Positions 4-29,459 of a DNA stretch of 64,000 nucleotides are shown piece by piece; the first letter of the stretch is position 1, and each line of letters opens with the position of its first letter. The stretch lies in IMG/VR virus record IMGVR_UViG_3300029288_000065, positions 96,001 to 160,000 of that record. One strand, given 5' to 3'. This DNA is from a virus (Duplodnaviria; Caudoviricetes). Under the pieces are notes generated by a model. It saw only the letters and a program-made list of their open reading frames with translations. It was not told the origin of the DNA and ran no database searches. The position numbers and the translations under genes were made by a program.

Positions 4-1779
4 TTGGTTAATCGTGGTCAGTTAAGGTATAATAAGAGGATTGGAGAGCAGGGTCTTCGTGGTTTGAAGGGGCTTCCTGGACGTGATAGGTTGAATACAG
101 GTCCTGTTGGGGCGGCGGGGGCAAATGGGAAGAATTCTGTTTGGCCTGGAATTTTATCTCAGAGTACATCTGGGGTTGCCAATGATCCAAATCGTGCAGT
201 AGTAGACATTTCGGTTGAGAAAATTTCACCAACTGAGAATTATATTGTTGTTACACGGGGTAGTATAGTAAATTCTTCTTATTGTCCACAATATGTCAAA
301 CCAACATCTATGAATTCGAAGTGGGTTTTGGCGATTGATGATCGACCTGAAACTACGACTCAAATACGAGAATGTGATGTATCAGAACAATGTGGTTTTT
401 CTTGTACTGGGATTCGAACTTTAATAATTCCTTTCTGTACTACCAAATTATATTATTTTGATTTTTCAGAAATTGAGACTTCTATTTCTGATAGATTTAC
501 TACATTATTAGAGAAAATGAAATCCGAAAAAGAAAAATTGGCTAATGATTGGCTAAAAACTATGATTTCAGTATTTTCTGAACAGAAGTTAGCTCTTTGT
601 TGTGCTTTAGAAAATTGTAATACAAAATCAGAAAATAAGCGTACAAAAGAGTATATTGAGACTCAGCGTATTGCTGCTGCTCAAGCTGGTTTACAATTGG
701 TTATTGGTAAGAAGAGTGATAATGCAAATCAATATGATGCCAATCCTGGTACACTTTGTCAATATCCTCCACCAAGTACATCTCCAAATACGCCTATAAT
801 AGATCCTGATTCAAATCAGATTTGCCCTGCATTGGCGGTTATAAATTTGGATTCCAGAGTTAATTATAATAATTTAACTCCTGTGTCTATTGATATGCCT
901 GCTGGTCGTTATTTATGTGAGATCACTGATTGTTGTGCTATAAATTATAATTATAATTCATGGGGTGGTGTTTATTGGGTTTCATACCATAATCTTTATG
1001 CAGAAAAGCATAATCAACCAGATAGAAATACTTATCCTGTTGGTTTGCCCATGTGGCATCTGGATGTTGAAGGTCCACAACACCAATGGGATGGTTGTGT
1101 TCCTGGACCACCCTTGGGAAATGGACTTGTCAAGAATTGTTACTTCGCAACTGAAGCTGAGGCCATTGCTTCTTATAAAGGAAATAGTACTTTAATTGCC
1201 CATGGTGGTGGTATGATGCATTTCTGGTCAGGTATGGGTGATAAATGTTGCGTCAATGGACATATTCAAATAACACTGAGAGATGCTGACTGTATGAATC
1301 CGCAACCAGGTAGTGTTGGTGTAGAATGCGCTACAGAACCAGCTTTCGCTACTGATATTACAGGAGTACCAGATAGTGAAAATTATTTTTGTGATATAAA
1401 TTTGGAACAAATTTTGTGGTACGAGTATGGCTGGCGTACAGGTGCTTGTTGTGGTGTATTACTTGAAGCAGGTGGAACCACCTGGATCGTAGTAAAGAGA
1501 TCAATTGCCGATGATGTTACTTGCGGCGGTGGTGAGAGTTTAAATACCCCTTGTATCAAGGGAGCATATGAACTTGGTTTTCATCCAGCGTTTGCATTCC
1601 CAACTATTGACGGACAGGTCTTTTTAGGTAAACCGACTACTGTTCAGAGGGTTATTCGAGATATTGATTTGGAAGGTGAAATTATTTCAAAGTTATCTAA
1701 AGGTCTCTATATTGAAATAAAGGGTGATCCGCTACATAATTTTGAAGGAATTTTGTTCCCATACGATCTTGGGTCATAA
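4..1779 (+). CDS. Cys-rich putative virion structural/fibre protein with short collagen-like G-X-Y repeats (probably 5'-truncated by the window edge)
   Basis: GEQGLRGLKGLPG and GPVGAAGANGKN triplets near the N-terminus; many Cys; ORF open from the window start. Confidence 0.5.
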   Translation: MVNRGQLRYNKRIGEQGLRGLKGLPGRDRLNTGPVGAAGANGKNSVWPGILSQSTSGVANDPNRAVVDISVEKISPTENYIVVTRGSIVNSSYCPQYVKPTSMNSKWVLAIDDRPETTTQIRECDVSEQCGFSCTGIRTLIIPFCTTKLYYFDFSEIETSISDRFTTLLEKMKSEKEKLANDWLKTMISVFSEQKLALCCALENCNTKSENKRTKEYIETQRIAAAQAGLQLVIGKKSDNANQYDANPGTLCQYPPPSTSPNTPIIDPDSNQICPALAVINLDSRVNYNNLTPVSIDMPAGRYLCEITDCCAINYNYNSWGGVYWVSYHNLYAEKHNQPDRNTYPVGLPMWHLDVEGPQHQWDGCVPGPPLGNGLVKNCYFATEAEAIASYKGNSTLIAHGGGMMHFWSGMGDKCCVNGHIQITLRDADCMNPQPGSVGVECATEPAFATDITGVPDSENYFCDINLEQILWYEYGWRTGACCGVLLEAGGTTWIVVKRSIADDVTCGGGESLNTPCIKGAYELGFHPAFAFPTIDGQVFLGKPTTVQRVIRDIDLEGEIISKLSKGLYIEIKGDPLHNFEGILFPYDLGS

Positions 1780-25663: not shown

Positions 25664-26040
25664 ACATAGACCTAAACAACCCAAACTGTGACATAGAAAA
25701 ACTCCTAACAGACTTCACAGCCTACATCATCATAAACTTCCAGTATAAAGACCCATCCACAGGAGGAGCACAATTCAGCGCAAGAATGGTCGGATCATGG
25801 ATAAGAACCAGAACAGATGGACACTTCCATTTCTCCGACATGGGACTATACGGAGACATAGACCCAAGATTTAAAGAAGATGCCATGCGCTTAATAAAAG
25901 CCTGGGAAGCAGTAAACCTTGTAGATGACACAGGAGAAATGACAAATGGATACCGCGTATTCTGTATACCATATAGTTTAGTAATAAAAACAAAATTAGC
26001 AATGGAAAAAGCAATCAAAGAACAGATAAAGCCTGACTAA
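25660..26040 (+). CDS. hypothetical protein, DP-x-x-D-x-EKL family
   Basis: MNIDLNNPNCDIEKLL...LIKAWEAVNLV. Confidence 0.65.
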   Translation: MNIDLNNPNCDIEKLLTDFTAYIIINFQYKDPSTGGAQFSARMVGSWIRTRTDGHFHFSDMGLYGDIDPRFKEDAMRLIKAWEAVNLVDDTGEMTNGYRVFCIPYSLVIKTKLAMEKAIKEQIKPD

Positions 26041-26626
26041 TCTCCTCATCAGTAAAAATCTTCTTCTTAGACCAACCATGCAAAAACTTAGACGAAGGAT
26101 TCAAAGAATTCCAATTATAAGCCTTATTATCAACCTCCAACCTCCCACCACCCCACTGAGCAAGAGACCTAGTCAAAGCCGGCTGATCACGCCCACCAAC
26201 AACCAACCACTCACTATGCCAAAGTCCAAATAAATCCCTAACTTTATCTGTAGAAAAAAGTAAAAAACCACTATTATATTGAGGTTTCCCACCAGAAGTT
26301 GGATGCACATCCCTCGTTAAAACCAAATCACCAGAAAAATCCCAAACCTCATCAAAGAGACCAACACACTTAACATCAGAATCCAAAAATAAAGTTCTCT
26401 CATATGGAGTATAATCACACAATTGAGTCTTTAACCACCTTGAAGGATTCTTATCCGTTACTTTTACCTGTTGTATTGTTGCTAGGGTATTCAAATACCC
26501 AGTATCACTCAAATCAGTTAGAACAGTAATTGGTTTGTTGGTAAATTCCCGCAATGAAAGTATACTACATGTACAGTTTATTAAGGCCTCTTCTCCGATT
26601 GCAATTTCAACTATTCCTTGTGTCAT
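26015..26626 (-). CDS. GT8/nucleotide-diphospho-sugar transferase-like
   Basis: TPYERTLFLDSD, YNSG, RDQPAL. Confidence 0.75.
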   Translation of the reverse strand: MTQGIVEIAIGEEALINCTCSILSLREFTNKPITVLTDLSDTGYLNTLATIQQVKVTDKNPSRWLKTQLCDYTPYERTLFLDSDVKCVGLFDEVWDFSGDLVLTRDVHPTSGGKPQYNSGFLLFSTDKVRDLFGLWHSEWLVVGGRDQPALTRSLAQWGGGRLEVDNKAYNWNSLNPSSKFLHGWSKKKIFTDEEISQALSVL

Positions 26627-26636
26627 ATTTTATTTT

Positions 26637-26808
26637 TGGTGCTCCTGGAAGGGTTCGAACCTCCAACCTTCCAATGGGATGAAACCCACCATCTAGTGCT
26701 ACGGATCAGACCCATCACACGAGTCGTCCCTTTAGATGACAGGTCATCACCCACTGGTGCTCCACCGACCCCACTACTGCGATAGTGGAGATTTTGAGCT
26801 ACAGGAGC
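26637..26808 (-). ncRNA. 172-nt tRNA-like RNA with D-loop hairpin insertion and extended anticodon arm
   Basis: acceptor GCTCCTG/CAGGAGC + A-CCA, TAGCTC/GAGC D stem, GGAGG-TTCGAAC-CCTTC T arm, long internal helices. Confidence 0.8.
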
Positions 26809-26816
26809 AACTCTTT

Positions 26817-27242
26817 TTACTCATCATCGTATACAAGTCTCGGAGGCTTATTCTCCTTGAAATAAGCCCTAACATGTTCCTTTACAACTTCATTAAAACC
26901 ATACTTATTCATAATCTCCTCCAAATTCTCAGACGGCTCATCGCCACCCAAATATGCCTTTTCACCAACACAAATCAAAATATTATCAGCAAACACCTTA
27001 TGATTCCCTCTCACCACGTATGGGGTGGCGTAGAGAGGAGAATCATTACAACACCCACAAGAATGCCTCATTGAGACACCCTCAGCAATCGCGTAAACCT
27101 TCTTACTGGTGAAGTATTGCTTTCTCCACCTGTCAGTTTTTACCTCCATATCTGGAAATTCAATCATCAAGTTCTCGATCTCTGCTACTTCAAGTGCCTT
27201 GCTCTTCAGTTCTGCAAGGTGTTTGTCGATGGACTCTGACAT
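26817..27242 (-). CDS. hypothetical protein (HSCGCC motif)
   Basis: SD AAGGAG; 141 aa. Confidence 0.7.
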   Translation of the reverse strand: MSESIDKHLAELKSKALEVAEIENLMIEFPDMEVKTDRWRKQYFTSKKVYAIAEGVSMRHSCGCCNDSPLYATPYVVRGNHKVFADNILICVGEKAYLGGDEPSENLEEIMNKYGFNEVVKEHVRAYFKENKPPRLVYDDE

Positions 27243-27252
27243 GTGTCTCTCC

Positions 27253-27558
27253 TTAGAGAAGCTTTAGTTCTCGGAACCAACCACTATCAACTGACGGGGA
27301 AATTGCCAATGCTGTGTGTGCGTTAATGTCTGGTTCATGGAAAATTGCGTGCTTAATTTCCTTGAACTTTTTCTCCCACGAGAGTAAGTCTTCCTCATCC
27401 TTGACGCCCAGGAGGACCATCGTCTTGTGGTTATTGTTCCAATCCTGTACCTATGGATCAGTTAGGTACCTGGAGAGGAACTCCGCTACAGCATGGCAAG
27501 CCTGTACTGCACGCTGAGAGGGCGAAAGATCCTTACGCACTAGCACATACAACTTCAT
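27253..27558 (-). CDS. pth2: peptidyl-tRNA hydrolase 2-like protein with in-frame amber at codon 36
   Basis: MKLYVLVRKDLSPSQRAVQACHAVAEF..P*VQDW..KTMVLLGVKDEEDL..FHEPD..TALAISP..LKLL; SD AGGAG; absent from the ORF track. Confidence 0.85.
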
Positions 27559-27919
27559 CTCGGAGTCTCCTTTCTTCCTGTATTTCCTTGCCCAGTTCCA
27601 ACCACTTTCTCTCGTATTTCTCGTCTCTGAGTTTCTCCATCAGACCAAATAAACTTCTGTTTGCGTAGGCTATGAGGTATGGGTATTTGTCTGAAATGTG
27701 ACAGGCTCGTTTGTCGTTCTCATTGCGATGGATGTGTAGTGCAATTAACCATTTGGAAGCTTCACGTTTATATCCTACGTAGGTTTTCCAGTTTTTTGAT
27801 TTTGGGTTGATGTGTTCGCCGATTTTGGTTCTAGAGTCTTGTTTTAAATCGGTGATTGCTTTGGCGTTTTTCCGGATGTAGTGCTTAATTACTTCTTCGA
27901 CCGTCAAATTCGTCGTCAT
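27533..27919 (-). CDS. basic hypothetical protein, first gene after the leader hairpin
   Basis: SD AAGGAG 7 nt before ATG 27919. Confidence 0.7.
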   Translation of the reverse strand: MTTNLTVEEVIKHYIRKNAKAITDLKQDSRTKIGEHINPKSKNWKTYVGYKREASKWLIALHIHRNENDKRACHISDKYPYLIAYANRSLFGLMEKLRDEKYERKWLELGKEIQEERRLRDEVVCASA

Positions 27920-27926
27920 CTTAAGT

Positions 27927-27975
27927 CTCCTTAACGGGTTTTGACCGAGGGGGTTGGCCATTACCCGTTAAGGAG
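27927..27975 (-). promoter_or_regulatory. SD-sequestering hairpin (13-bp perfect stem)
   Basis: CTCCTTAACGGGT ... ACCCGTTAAGGAG; the 3' arm contains the AAGGAG SD of ATG 27919. Confidence 0.85.
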
Positions 27976-28006
27976 GGTGAAGATCGATGTTTGGTACCTA
28001 ACGCAT
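27968..28006 (-). promoter_or_regulatory. leader uORF M-R-(TAG)-V-P-N-I-D-L-H-P-P-TAA
   Basis: own SD AGGAG; amber at codon 3; last codons overlap the 5' arm of the hairpin. Confidence 0.75.
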
Positions 28007-28047
28007 AACTGTCTCCTAATCTATTTTTATCTACGATTGTCAGTTTG

Positions 28048-28443
28048 TCAATAATCAACGCCTCTCATTTTCAATGTACCAAAATATTTCTCCATCCTCA
28101 AAAATTTCTTCTTTCTATCACTACAAAGGAAGATTAGGCAATCTACAAAGTGTTTCCAGAACGTGTCAGGGTCGAAATTCGGGTCTGCTAGTTCTATTTC
28201 ATAGAACACATAGCTTGGGTAATTTACATTATATTCTTTACTATAAAATATTTTTATGTCGGTATCTGAGATTTCTATAGAAGTTGCTCCGAGGATTCCA
28301 GTATCATAGTCCAGGCAACGTGGTGATTCACTTTTTATTGCAACCCGTCTAAGATCTTGCCCTAAGATTGAATATATTTCTTTCCCTAAGCGCTGGATTG
28401 ATTTTTCTATGGTATGCATGATTTCCAAATGATCTTCGTTCAT
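28048..28443 (-). CDS. small protein, ELADP family
   Basis: IELADPNFDPD. Confidence 0.65.
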   Translation of the reverse strand: MNEDHLEIMHTIEKSIQRLGKEIYSILGQDLRRVAIKSESPRCLDYDTGILGATSIEISDTDIKIFYSKEYNVNYPSYVFYEIELADPNFDPDTFWKHFVDCLIFLCSDRKKKFLRMEKYFGTLKMRGVDY

Positions 28444-28859
28444 TTTCGTTCCCCGAAATCTTTAAAATTATCCAGTACGTTACAGGCTTTGCTTCTTAAT
28501 TTTTTATGGTGTTCGATGCATTTTAGTGACGCATTTGTTATTCGTTCGCACTCGCTCGTGACATATTGTTTTATACTTTCAGCTGCTTCGTGAAAACAAT
28601 TGGGGTTTGCCATTTCGAATGTTAAATATTGTGTTTCACCATCAGAGCTGGTATTCAGATTGAAAACTAATAATAAATCACCTTCCACACTAATGGTTAT
28701 TTTTATAATAATTTTTGCAATATCATAATAATTATCCTTTAAACAGATTATTATTTCTTCGTAGGAATAATTTTTCTTGATTTCGAAAATGTCTGGGAGT
28801 CGTTTTTGTATTTCTGCCCAGATTTCGTTTATTATGGGGATTAGGGGGGTGTTATGCAT
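28440..28859 (-). CDS. small protein, EMANP family
   Basis: FEMANPNCF; ATG directly after the tRNA CCA. Confidence 0.6.
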   Translation of the reverse strand: MHNTPLIPIINEIWAEIQKRLPDIFEIKKNYSYEEIIICLKDNYYDIAKIIIKITISVEGDLLLVFNLNTSSDGETQYLTFEMANPNCFHEAAESIKQYVTSECERITNASLKCIEHHKKLRSKACNVLDNFKDFGERK

Positions 28860-28862
28860 ATT

Positions 28863-28938
28863 TGGCGCTTCCGGAGGGAATCGAACCCCCAACACACTGA
28901 TTTAGATTCAGCTGCTCTACCAATTGAGCTACGGAAGC
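28863..28938 (-). tRNA. amber suppressor tRNA (anticodon CUA)
   Basis: 76-nt cloverleaf GCTTCCG..TAGCTCAATTGGTAGAGC..GCTGA-ATCTAAA-TCAGT..GGGGGTTCGATTCCCTC..CGGAAGC-G-CCA. Confidence 0.92.
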
Positions 28939-28973
28939 GTCGTTCATAAGTATATATTATCGAGGAGACCAAA

Positions 28974-29459
28974 ATGGGAAAATCAATACCAACCAACCTC
29001 AAGAAATTAGCACAGCTAAAAATCAAAATTGATATACTAACTGAGAAGTACGAAAAAGACAAAGAATCCTACCAAAAACAACTCACGGAGCCAGGAGAAC
29101 GACTGGTAGATATAGACTCTGGACTTGCTTTAGTAATGATCCAAACCGAAAGACGACAATTTAATATTGAAGGTGTTAAAGCCAATGGAGGACAAGACTG
29201 CGTAGAAGAATCAGTAAGTGCAAAGAAATTTGATGCCAAATTCAAGAAAGGTGAGAAATATCTCCTCTCAGAAGACAAGATACAGGCTTGTTTCACGACA
29301 ACCAAACAAGCACCTTATATGAATTGGGAAGGACTTAAGGAATATCGAAGGAAAATTGAATCGATCCTCCAAAATACTGTAGGAAAAGTAATTAAAGAAG
29401 AGGAAAAACCCAATGCCAAGCCCAAAACCAATTCAGAGAACGGTATTGAAACTACCTGA
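28974..29459 (+). CDS. hypothetical protein
   Basis: SD GAGGAG; 161 aa. Confidence 0.7.
   Translation: MGKSIPTNLKKLAQLKIKIDILTEKYEKDKESYQKQLTEPGERLVDIDSGLALVMIQTERRQFNIEGVKANGGQDCVEESVSAKKFDAKFKKGEKYLLSEDKIQACFTTTKQAPYMNWEGLKEYRRKIESILQNTVGKVIKEEEKPNAKPKTNSENGIETT

What the first reader, a model, noticed from the sequence alone, without database searches (positions are those of the whole stretch)
26637..26808. 172-nt 'giant tRNA': intact acceptor, D and T arms with a hairpin in the D loop and a very long anticodon arm
Seen: GCTCCTG/CAGGAGC-A-CCA, TA-GCTC...GAGC and a T arm with a TTCGAAC loop. An extra 8-bp hairpin CTCCACTA/TAGTGGGG sits in the D loop. The anticodon arm is replaced by CCAGTGGG/CCCATTGG plus ACCTGTCATCTA/TAGATGGTGGGT (many G-U pairs) enclosing a 37-nt loop, with no canonical 7-nt anticodon loop. 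It also contains ATCTAAA, identical to the suppressor's anticodon loop, with its CTA paired to an internal TAG. It is too short for a group I intron and lacks the G3-U70 of tmRNA. Inference: a tRNA mimic (decoy for anticodon nucleases or synthetases, ribosome-rescue RNA, or a precursor spliced by an unknown route), co-transcribed with pth2.
Basis: partly seen in the sequence, partly recalled or inferred. Interest (0 to 1): 0.85.

Follow-up and report, generated by a model that had tools for sequence, protein, structure and literature searches.

The report
Anticodon-less tRNA-shaped phage RNA
An uncultured 234-kb phage encodes a conserved 172-base RNA with the upper half of a tRNA and a CCA end, but a long double-stranded rod where the anticodon should be, so it cannot read codons and most likely acts as a protein-binding tRNA look-alike whose job is untested.

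Summary
On the minus strand at 26637-26808 lies a 172-nt RNA with a 7-bp acceptor stem, A73, an encoded CCA, a D stem, GG in the D loop and a canonical T arm. It also has a hairpin inside the D loop. In place of the anticodon arm there is an 8-bp plus 13-bp rod capped by two small hairpins.

No Rfam family matches it. I found four further lineages in metagenome contigs, each 6-9 nt downstream of the same 141-aa gene (P0001). Across them 97% of the modelled pairs hold and 18 pairs show compensatory changes. The rod is 94% identical between two phages whose synonymous sites are 64% identical.

The D-loop hairpin and the rod tip are lineage-specific; one member has a plain 22-bp hairpin. The "AUCUAAA" anticodon-like string is not conserved, because CUA becomes CCA with a compensating change. 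No single excision recreates an anticodon loop.

Best reading: a non-decoding tRNA mimic, in effect a natural "tRNA scaffold" displaying a conserved dsRNA rod, cut out of an operon transcript. Its partner and function are unknown, and no expression data could be obtained.

The scan has noted other anticodon-less phage tRNA look-alikes on other DNA, but not this family.

The parts
26637..26808 (-). Whole 172-nt tRNA-shaped RNA gene. The RNA 5' end is at 26808 and the CCA-3' end at 26637.
   Evidence: Sequence read. Structure checked. CM R1 and R2 self-hit. Homologues found.
26802..26808 (-). Acceptor stem, 5' strand GCUCCUG.
   Evidence: Pairs perfectly with 26641-26647. It covaries in L089 and L091, which have GCUGGU/ACCAGC and ACCGGC.
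26637..26647 (-). Acceptor stem 3' strand CAGGAGC, discriminator A73 and genome-encoded CCA.
   Evidence: An NCCA end is present in all five lineages: ACCA in four and GCCA in one.
26759..26799 (-). D arm: stem GCUC/GAGC and a 33-nt D loop that keeps GG (18/19).
   Evidence: The D stem is 100% paired, with 3 of 4 pairs changed on both sides across the family.
26769..26790 (-). Lineage-specific hairpin inserted in the D loop (CUCCACUAU-CGCA-GUAGUGGGG).
   Evidence: Present only in the giant RNA and L087, with a different tip. Absent in L088, L089 and L091.
26671..26757 (-). Rod that replaces the anticodon arm. It has an 8-bp proximal helix, a 4x4 internal loop, a 13-bp distal helix carrying the invariant GACCUG/YRGGUU motif, and a tip.
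   Evidence: Helices 4 and 5 are 100% paired, with 5 of 8 and 6 of 12 pairs compensatory. 82 of 87 nt are identical to L087, against 64% at 4-fold sites.
26696..26732 (-). Rod tip: 37 nt predicted to form two hairpins at a three-way junction.
   Evidence: Conserved in L087 and partly in L088 (shared CUCGUGUGAUGGG). Replaced by other sequence in L089 and by a GGUU tetraloop in L091.
26648..26664 (-). T arm GGAGG-UUCGAAC-CCUUC.
   Evidence: Aligned to the Rfam tRNA T arm. The UUCRA motif is conserved in all members.
26817..27242 (-). P0001, a 141-aa Cys-motif protein (RHSCGCC). Its stop codon lies 8 nt upstream of the RNA 5' end. It is the only gene that always accompanies the RNA.
   Evidence: The stop-to-RNA spacer is 6-9 nt in all five lineages. 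No Pfam or PHROG family and no fold match.
27253..27558 (-). Pth2-like peptidyl-tRNA hydrolase gene with an in-frame TAG at codon 36 (27451-27453). It lies upstream in the same gene string.
   Evidence: Relatives carry PF01981, and close relatives are called as split 35 + 55-57 aa genes.
28863..28938 (-). Canonical amber-suppressor tRNA (anticodon CUA) at the head of the same gene string.
   Evidence: ARAGORN. Rfam tRNA at 67 bits.
26015..26626 (-). P0002, a 203-aa downstream gene. Its ATG lies 10 nt after the CCA and has no Shine-Dalgarno sequence.
   Evidence: A homologue follows the RNA in L087 but not in L089 or L091.

Best explanation
This is the gene of a stable, non-decoding tRNA mimic. 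It belongs to a small, uncatalogued RNA family that sits just after one phage gene, P0001.

Shown:
- The RNA keeps the parts of a tRNA that processing and tRNA-binding proteins recognise: the acceptor stem, the NCCA end, the D stem, G18-G19 and a UUCRA T loop, which together form the elbow.
- The anticodon arm is replaced by a base-paired rod of about 22-24 bp. The rod carries an invariant wobble-rich segment (5'-GACCUG / 5'-YRGGUU).
- The rod tip and some other sites carry lineage-specific expansions.

Inferred:
- The RNA is transcribed with the suppressor tRNA - Pth2 - P0001 gene string.
- RNase P frees its 5' end, 6-9 nt after the P0001 stop codon, and it is trimmed to the encoded CCA.
- It folds into an L shape whose long arm is too long, and too fully paired, to enter the ribosomal decoding centre or to be cut as an anticodon loop.
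- The tRNA frame then works like the engineered 'tRNA scaffold'. It supplies processing, folding and nuclease resistance, while the conserved rod, possibly together with the CCA end, is presented to a protein.
- The most likely partner is either P0001, the co-conserved upstream protein, or a host tRNA-directed factor that the RNA titrates as a decoy.
For: - Anatomy was read directly and verified.
- The fold is more stable than all 200 shuffles (z = -4.45).
- No Rfam family reaches its threshold. The tRNA model gives only 16.6 bits, on the 3' part. Homologues also have no Rfam match.
- Four more lineages were found with a covariance model of the RNA: L087 at 145 bits, L088 at 74 bits, and L089/L090 and L091 at about 25 bits. 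Each lies directly after a P0001 homologue.
- Covariation is strong. 97.4% of cells are paired and 18 pairs are changed on both sides, reached by 0 of 500 shuffles. Slid controls pair at about 45%. Both rod helices are 100% paired.
- Purifying selection acts on the rod. It is 82 of 87 nt identical between the giant RNA and L087, and 4 of the 5 changes form two compensatory pairs. Four-fold degenerate sites of the flanking genes are 64% identical (p about 2e-11).
- The NCCA end, G18-G19 and UUCRA are kept in all members.
- L091 carries a plain rod with a tetraloop, so no anticodon or tag ORF can be essential.
- No excision restores an anticodon loop in three of the five members.
- No terminator or better-than-chance promoter lies between the genes.
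- Engineered tRNA scaffolds, with the insert placed in the anticodon stem, are processed and stable in E. coli (PMC3753655).
Against: - There are no expression data.
- The family is small, with five lineages, and the alignment was fitted to the model, which favours the structure.
- P0001 occurs without the RNA in two lineages (L003/L004 and L140), so it is not an obligate partner. Those contigs are short.
- The acceptor/T junction has a mismatch in L088, L089 and L091. This is unusual for a tRNA that must be charged.
- The P0001 fold gave no RNA-binding clue.
Confidence: 0.55

Rival explanations
1. It is a cis-acting processing and mRNA-end element ('tRNA punctuation'). The tRNA shape exists only so that RNase P and 3' trimming cut the operon transcript between P0001 and the next gene. 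This would set the P0001 mRNA 3' end and the short leader of P0002, much as the MALAT1/mascRNA module or mitochondrial tRNA punctuation does. The released RNA would have no function of its own.
For: - The RNA sits 6-9 nt after the P0001 stop codon in all five lineages, even where the 5' part of the RNA has grown.
- It lies 10 nt before an ATG that has no Shine-Dalgarno sequence in the giant RNA and L087.
- No promoter or terminator lies between the genes.
- The RNA is never found without P0001 in 73 related phage records or in a pattern scan.
Against: - RNase P needs only the acceptor/T domain. That would not explain a rod that is 94% conserved against 64% at neutral sites, an invariant GACCUG/YRGGUU segment, or a conserved tip motif shared with L088.
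- The downstream gene differs between lineages.
Confidence: 0.17
2. It is a chargeable tRNA-like amino-acid carrier used off the decoding pathway. It would be aminoacylated by a synthetase that ignores the anticodon. It would then work as an amino-acid donor for a transferase, as a Pth2 or EF-Tu ligand, or on split 50S subunits in a rescue-type reaction.
For: - The NCCA end, G1-C72 and a purine discriminator are kept in all members.
- The frame most resembles amber-suppressor tRNAs of related phages, with an identical 5' acceptor strand GCUCCUG in L046-type CUA tRNAs. Suppressor tRNAs must themselves be charged independently of the anticodon.
- The gene lies in a string with a suppressor tRNA and a peptidyl-tRNA hydrolase.
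Against: - There is no G3:U70, no long variable arm and no tag ORF, and ARAGORN's tmRNA mode calls nothing.
- There are mismatches at 7:66 or 49:65 in three members.
- The similarity to suppressor tRNAs is weak (29 of 70), and the tRNA set compared was enriched in CUA tRNAs.
- No aminoacyl-transferase was recognised nearby.
Confidence: 0.08
3. It is a precursor of a normal tRNA that carries unconventional introns (compare the 'enigmatic introns' of Lak megaphage tRNAs). The D-loop hairpin and most of the rod would be removed to give a decoding tRNA.
For: - ARAGORN in intron mode forces a tRNA call on exactly these coordinates.
- Oversized tRNA genes have been reported in huge phages (PMC6784885).
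- The same genome has a true intron-bearing tRNA-Leu(UAA).
Against: - ARAGORN's model has a 3-bp mismatched D stem and an AUC anticodon.
- No single excision gives a 5-bp stem plus a 7-nt loop with U33 and R37 in the giant RNA, L087 or L088. The chance solutions in L089 and L091 give different anticodons.
- There is no Intron_gpI signal at E <= 10, against 41.9 bits for the tRNA-Leu intron of the same genome.
- I saw no bulge-helix-bulge geometry by eye.
- No RtcB was found, and only a sub-threshold ligase-domain hit, in the 89%-complete genome.
- The rod pairs across the whole would-be exon-intron boundary and covaries.
Confidence: 0.06
4. It is a decaying tRNA pseudogene that has picked up junk palindromic insertions.
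For: - Insertions sit at different sites in different lineages: the D loop, position 8/9 and the rod tip. L089 carries a 24-nt tandem duplication.
- The element is absent from two P0001-bearing lineages.
Against: - Compensatory changes occur in every helix.
- The rod is much better conserved than synonymous sites.
- The NCCA end and the elbow nucleotides are kept in all members.
Confidence: 0.03

Closest known systems
Engineered 'tRNA scaffold' RNAs (Ponchon, Dardel and co-workers; PMC3753655)
   Same: The acceptor stem, T arm and D arm are kept. The anticodon stem-loop is turned into an insertion site that must remain a hairpin. The fusion RNA is processed and protected like a tRNA in E. coli. 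The architecture matches this RNA: the insert sits exactly at the anticodon stem.
   Different: The scaffold is man-made and its insert is arbitrary. Here the design is natural, the insert is a conserved rod under selection, and there is a second expansion site (the D loop, or position 8/9).
tmRNA (SsrA) tRNA-like domain with helix P2
   Same: Both have an acceptor stem with a CCA end and a T arm. Both have a long helix in place of a decoding arm, and neither has an anticodon.
   Different: tmRNA has G3:U70, no D stem, pseudoknots and a tag ORF. This RNA has U3-A70, a full D stem and no ORF, since the tip is dispensable in L091. ARAGORN's tmRNA mode is silent on it.
YrlA, the tRNA-mimicking bacterial and phage Y RNA (Rfam RF02553; PMC4201824)
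   Same: Both are tRNA-like modules with T and D arms and tertiary-contact nucleotides, joined to a long helix that binds a protein (Ro60/Rsr). YrlA is recognised by RNase P, the CCA enzyme and tRNA-modification enzymes.
   Different: In YrlA the RNA ends lie in the long helix and the 'acceptor' is a closed hairpin. Here the ends lie in the acceptor stem and the rod is closed, so the topology is permuted. There is no GNCGAA Rsr motif in the rod, no RF02553 match and no TROVE/Ro60 gene in the phage. The host is unknown.
'Enigmatic introns' in Lak megaphage tRNAs (Devoto et al. 2019, PMC6784885)
   Same: These are oversized tRNA genes in huge phages that use or tolerate amber suppression. Their inserts are highly conserved and their role is unknown.
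   Different: The Lak cases were read as intron-bearing tRNAs with an assignable anticodon. Here no anticodon loop can be reconstituted. No sequence relationship was tested.
mascRNA / MALAT1 3'-end module (own knowledge)
   Same: It is a tRNA-like structure embedded in a longer transcript. RNase P cuts it out, it is CCA-ended, and it lacks a conserved anticodon loop.
   Different: It is eukaryotic, about 61 nt, and has a short anticodon arm rather than a 22-24-bp conserved rod. It is not related by sequence.

Membership tests
Canonical tRNA (Rfam RF00005) | Score at or above the family's gathering threshold (29 bits) | tested here: not met
   The score is 16.6 bits (E = 1.4), and only for a mis-registered 3' part. 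There was no hit at the gathering threshold. ARAGORN without intron mode gives no call.
Canonical tRNA (Rfam RF00005) | Acceptor stem, D stem, T arm with a UUCRA loop, G18-G19 and an NCCA end | tested here: met
   Read directly and checked. Conserved in five lineages.
Canonical tRNA (Rfam RF00005) | 5-bp anticodon stem closing a 7-nt loop with U33 and R37 | tested here: not met
   The arm is an 87-nt paired rod. No contiguous excision restores such a loop in the giant RNA, L087 or L088.
tRNA with group I intron | Group I catalytic core (Rfam RF00028) | tested here: not met
   There is no RF00028 match at E <= 10 in 26400-27000. As a positive control, the tRNA-Leu(UAA) intron of the same genome scores 41.9 bits (E = 1e-8). 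The insert (about 70 nt in the arm) is far shorter than that 195-nt intron.
tRNA with archaeal-type (BHB) intron | Two 3-nt bulges separated by a 4-bp helix at the exon-intron borders | tested here: not met
   By inspection of the verified structure, the only interruption in the rod is a symmetric 4x4 internal loop, which is 2x2 in L089 and L091. This was a check by eye, not by a dedicated program.
tmRNA | G3:U70 alanine identity pair | tested here: not met
   Position 3:70 is U-A in the giant RNA, L087 and L088 and in L089, and U-G in L091.
tmRNA | Internal tag-peptide reading frame flanked by pseudoknots | tested here: not met
   ARAGORN's tmRNA search is negative here, while it finds tmRNAs in related phages. 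The whole tip is replaced by a tetraloop in L091.
YrlA / Y RNA | Match to RF02553 or RF00019, with 5' and 3' ends in the Ro-binding helix carrying a GNCGAA-type motif | tested here: not met
   No such Rfam match was found. The ends lie in the acceptor stem. The motif as defined in PMC4201824 is not in the rod.
YrlA / Y RNA | A Ro60/Rsr (TROVE) gene nearby | tested here: not met
   PF05731 is absent from the 234-kb record, and the controls were positive. The host genome is unknown, so a host Rsr cannot be excluded.
Box C/D or K-turn RNA | Conserved RUGAUGA and CUGA boxes able to form tandem sheared G-A pairs | tested here: not met
   There are weak sR7 and SNORD hits only (11.6-18.9 bits against gathering scores of 37-40). 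GUGAUGA becomes GGGAUGA or GGCAGA, and CUGA is lost in L088, L089 and L091. The opposite strand of the internal loop has no GA.
Lak-type tRNA with 'enigmatic intron' | Oversized phage tRNA gene in which an anticodon and an excision point can be assigned from intron-less alleles | tested here: not met
   No intron-less allele was found. Lineages that lack the RNA lack the whole gene. No consistent anticodon can be assigned.

The most novel reading that the evidence does not exclude
The RNA is the dedicated partner of P0001. It would be a phage ribonucleoprotein built on a chargeable, anticodon-less tRNA, with the wobble-rich rod as the docking site. Together with the amber-gated Pth2 and the suppressor tRNA of the same gene string, it would act on the host's tRNA or termination machinery. 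One possibility is that it soaks up a tRNA-targeting defence enzyme. Another is that it tunes how much suppressor tRNA is charged. Either would be a new class of phage translation-control RNP.
Probability: 0.15. Interest if true: 0.85.

Novelty: new variant of a known kind. Interest (0 to 1): 0.62.

Why it matters
Phage tRNA genes are usually explained by codon supply or by escape from anticodon nucleases. A conserved tRNA-shaped RNA that cannot decode fits neither explanation. It suggests that phages also use the tRNA frame as a chassis: it is self-processing, stable and recognised by host enzymes, and it displays another RNA element.

This family offers a compact, testable case:
- It is 107-213 nt long, depending on the member.
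- It has one invariant helix segment.
- It has one constant neighbouring gene.
- It sits inside an operon that already links an amber suppressor tRNA to an amber-interrupted peptidyl-tRNA hydrolase.

If a partner is found, it could explain part of the oversized or 'intron-bearing' tRNA genes reported in huge phages. It would also provide a natural precedent for tRNA-scaffold RNA expression.

Tried and rejected
- Exact-pattern and single-protein searches of IMG/VR with the T arm plus acceptor, with P0001 and with P0002 found nothing. The same search with the P0001 alignment also found nothing.
- BLASTN against GenBank phages matched only the T arm of ordinary tRNAs.
- Models R1 and R2 run over 73 Pth2-bearing IMG/VR records found no further rod-bearing member of this family. 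The hits were ordinary tRNAs, short odd-armed tRNA-likes, or unrelated oversized tRNA genes. A degenerate rod plus T-arm pattern scan likewise returned only ordinary tRNAs.
- For the P0001 structure (pLDDT 71.6), Foldseek against PDB gave no hit at E <= 0.001. VIA-align wide gave a best Z of 3.8. ESM Atlas gave a best TM of 0.42. None is informative.
- The C/D-box, K-turn and SECIS reading of GUGAUGA...CUGA was rejected because the boxes are not conserved.
- The idea that the rod is a circularly permuted Y RNA Ro-binding helix was rejected. There is no motif and no TROVE gene.
- The tmRNA-like tag reading of the tip was rejected because the tip is absent in L091.
- Descent from the amber suppressor remains only a weak lead.
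It was rerun from references.

Full report
**Where it lies.** The window is bases 96001-160000 of a 233,959-bp IMG/VR virus record that is 89% complete. The feature is on the minus strand. It sits in a run of minus-strand genes:
- a canonical CUA (amber-suppressor) tRNA at 28863-28938;
- an ORF at 27533-27961;
- a Pth2-like gene at 27253-27558 with an in-frame TAG at codon 36, whose relatives carry PF01981;
- the 141-aa ORF P0001 at 26817-27242;
- the RNA at 26637-26808;
- the 203-aa ORF P0002 at 26015-26626.

The RNA starts 8 nt after the P0001 stop codon. Its CCA ends 10 nt before the P0002 ATG. A consensus scan found no minus-strand terminator in 25800-29200, and promoter-like sites were no more frequent than in shuffled sequence. 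Co-transcription is therefore the simplest assumption, but it is an inference.

**Check of the observation.** I wrote the cloverleaf-plus-insertions structure out and checked that it matches the sequence base for base; its energy is -69.5 kcal/mol. The unconstrained MFE is -74.4 kcal/mol against -55.9 +/- 4.2 for dinucleotide shuffles, z = -4.45. It keeps the acceptor stem, D stem, D-loop hairpin and the whole rod. The 37-nt 'loop' is predicted to form two hairpins. The AUCUAAA string really is identical to the anticodon loop of the neighbouring suppressor tRNA.

**What it is not.**
- Rfam 15 has no family for it. Nothing reaches the gathering threshold. At E <= 10 there is only a 16.6-bit tRNA alignment of the 3' part, plus chance-level SECIS, snoRNA and miRNA hits.
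- ARAGORN calls nothing in normal or tmRNA mode. In intron mode it forces a 'tRNA-Asp(AUC)' with a 3-bp mismatched D stem and an 87-nt intron on exactly these coordinates. That is an artefact of the good acceptor and T arms.
- The same genome supplies a positive control for a real intron. Its tRNA-Leu(UAA) gene carries a 195-nt insert that scores 41.9 bits (E = 1e-8) on the group I model. The present insert gives no such signal.
- An enumeration of all single excisions shows that none restores a 5-bp stem with a 7-nt loop, U33 and R37 in this RNA.
- The phage record has no RtcB and no CCA-adding enzyme, and only a sub-threshold ligase-domain hit.

**Homologues.** Direct DNA and single-protein searches failed. 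I therefore went through the neighbouring genes.
- The Pth2-like protein has relatives in 75 IMG/VR loci. None of these holds the RNA.
- P0001 has only six relatives in the 5.8-billion-protein collection, and their contigs were informative.
- A covariance model built from the single sequence (R1) found the RNA immediately after the P0001 homologue in four places: L087 (167 nt, 145 bits), L088 (142 nt, 74 bits), L089/L090 and L091 (about 25 bits).
- In L089 and L091 the model mis-placed the 5' strand. Reading and folding the intergenic region shows that the true acceptor 5' strand (GCUGGU) lies further upstream, 8-9 nt after the stop codon. An extra hairpin is inserted between the acceptor stem and the D arm.
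- Two other P0001-bearing lineages (L003/L004 and L140) have a converging ORF in the slot and no RNA.

**What is conserved and what is not.**
- All five lineages keep the acceptor stem, a purine discriminator with an encoded CCA, the D stem, GG in the D loop and a UUCRA T loop.
- All five also keep a proximal helix of 8-10 bp, a small internal loop, and a distal helix that always begins 5'-GACCUG paired to 5'-YRGGUU. This gives the pattern G-U, A-U, C-G, C-G, U-G, G-U.
- The D-loop hairpin exists only in the giant RNA and L087.
- The two-hairpin tip exists in the giant RNA, L087 and L088, which share CUCGUGUGAUGGG. It is different in L089 and is reduced to a GGUU tetraloop in L091.
- The 'anticodon-like' CUA is CCA in L087, with the paired UAG changed to UGG. 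It is therefore helix, not mimicry.

**Statistics.**
- On the five-sequence alignment, 97.4% of pair cells are standard pairs and 18 of 58 pairs have changes on both sides. None of 500 column shuffles reaches the observed values. Sliding the 3' partners by 1-3 columns drops pairing to 42-48%.
- The two rod helices are 100% paired, with 5 of 8 and 6 of 12 pairs compensatory.
- One caveat: the alignment was fitted to the model, and five sequences are few.
- An independent test gives the same answer. Between the giant RNA and L087, the rod is 82 of 87 nt identical, and four of the five differences make two compensatory pairs. Four-fold degenerate sites of the flanking genes are only 64% identical. 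The binomial p is about 2e-11.
- The insert is therefore under stronger constraint than anything neutral nearby. That excludes junk and argues that the rod itself is functional.

**How it probably works.** What is shown is an RNA with a tRNA elbow and a CCA end but no decoding arm. The rest is inference from established knowledge.
- RNase P, 3' trimming, the CCA enzyme, EF-Tu, many synthetases and Pth enzymes read the acceptor/T domain and the elbow, not the anticodon.
- An anticodon arm lengthened by about 20 bp cannot sit in the 30S decoding site.
- Engineered RNAs of exactly this design, the tRNA scaffold with its insert in the anticodon stem, are processed and accumulate in E. coli (PMC3753655).

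I therefore read it as a natural tRNA scaffold and mimic. It would be cut from the operon transcript and stabilised by its tRNA frame, presenting a conserved wobble-rich rod, and possibly a chargeable CCA end, to a protein. The only constant companion is P0001. Its fold matches nothing known, so the partner may equally be a host tRNA-directed factor that the RNA titrates. I put 0.55 on this class of explanation.

**Rivals.**
- A purely cis-acting RNase P 'punctuation' signal fits the tight and conserved 6-9-nt spacing after the P0001 stop codon. It does not explain the constrained rod (0.17).
- A charged, non-ribosomal amino-acid carrier or rescue-type RNA fits the conserved NCCA end and the company of a suppressor tRNA and Pth2. 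It lacks any identity signature, and three members have junction mismatches (0.08).
- The intron-bearing precursor (0.06) and the pseudogene (0.03) are disfavoured.

**Comparison with known systems.**
- In how it would work, the RNA most resembles the engineered tRNA scaffold. In overall shape it resembles the tRNA-like domain plus P2 helix of tmRNA, and YrlA, which is a tRNA-like module fused to a protein-binding helix (PMC4201824).
- It is not a member of either natural family. It has no G3:U70 and no tag ORF, and it does have a D stem. It has no RF02553 match, its ends lie in the acceptor stem rather than in the helix, it has no Rsr motif, and the phage has no TROVE gene.
- The published 'enigmatic introns' of Lak megaphage tRNAs (PMC6784885) are the nearest literature on oversized phage tRNA genes. 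They were read as introns in decoding tRNAs.
- Earlier notes of this scan describe other anticodon-less tRNA look-alikes in unrelated phages. This kind has therefore been seen before on other DNA, but a sequence look-up found no copy of this family elsewhere.

**Verdict.** The finding is a real, selected, uncatalogued RNA family of narrow distribution. It is a new variant of the tRNA-mimic kind. The function, the partner and even transcription remain untested.

Noticed in passing
L005-L085 (IMG/VR loci around Pth2-like genes), e.g. L005:4001-4504: In about 70 of 75 phage loci, a CUA (amber-suppressor) tRNA lies within a few hundred bases of the Pth2-like gene, usually directly downstream. The linkage between a phage peptidyl-tRNA hydrolase and a suppressor tRNA is very strong, and it is much wider than this phage's clade.
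   Followed up: partly
L012:3273-3351; L077:3541-3627; L078:3536-3631: Three related tRNA-shaped genes share the T arm GGUGGUUCGAAUCCAUC. They lie 450-730 nt upstream of Pth2 and have non-canonical anticodon arms. One example is an 8-bp stem capped by GAAA in L012. They are the best non-family hits of the rod-RNA model, at 55, 46 and 50 bits. They may be short-armed cousins of the family.
   Followed up: partly
L141:3555-3836 (genome 3555-3836, outside the window): A tRNA-Leu(UAA) gene is interrupted by a 195-nt group I intron. Intron_gpI scores 41.9 bits (E = 1e-8), just under the gathering score of 50. From memory, the core resembles the cyanobacterial tRNA-Leu intron.
   Followed up: partly
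L124:1111-1266 and 1663-1817; L125:1368-1501 and 1010-1140 (minus strand): Two other Pth2-bearing phages each carry a pair of 130-160-nt tRNA genes with 60-90-nt inserts in the anticodon region. Within each pair the inserts share conserved blocks, for example GCACCAGGUAYGG...AAUCUCCGGAGAC. They are unclassified and unrelated to the rod family.
   Followed up: no
L021:7624-7852: A 229-nt structured RNA has tRNA-like ends (GGGGAAA...UUUCCCC-A-CCA) and a T arm. It lies 1.2 kb from a normal tmRNA gene in the same phage.
   Followed up: no
L089:1245-1295 (also L090): The 5' expansion of the L089 homologue contains a perfect 24-nt tandem duplication (CCGTCTGTCCTAGGTAACGGGCGG, two copies) that L091 lacks.
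   Followed up: no
window 26616-26640: The P0002 start codon (26624-26626) has no Shine-Dalgarno sequence. It lies 10 nt after the CCA of the RNA in an A-rich spacer, and the same is true in L087. P0001, by contrast, has a strong AAGGAG.
   Followed up: no
genome 1491-1577 (outside the window): An 87-nt stretch just upstream of tRNA-Val gives a weak hit to the rod-RNA/tRNA model (22.6 bits). ARAGORN does not call it.
   Followed up: no
L003:4609-5031; L140:1417-2139: In the two P0001-bearing lineages that lack the RNA, the slot downstream of P0001 is occupied by a converging ORF of unknown function. In L140 the C-terminus of P0001 is rearranged.
   Followed up: no
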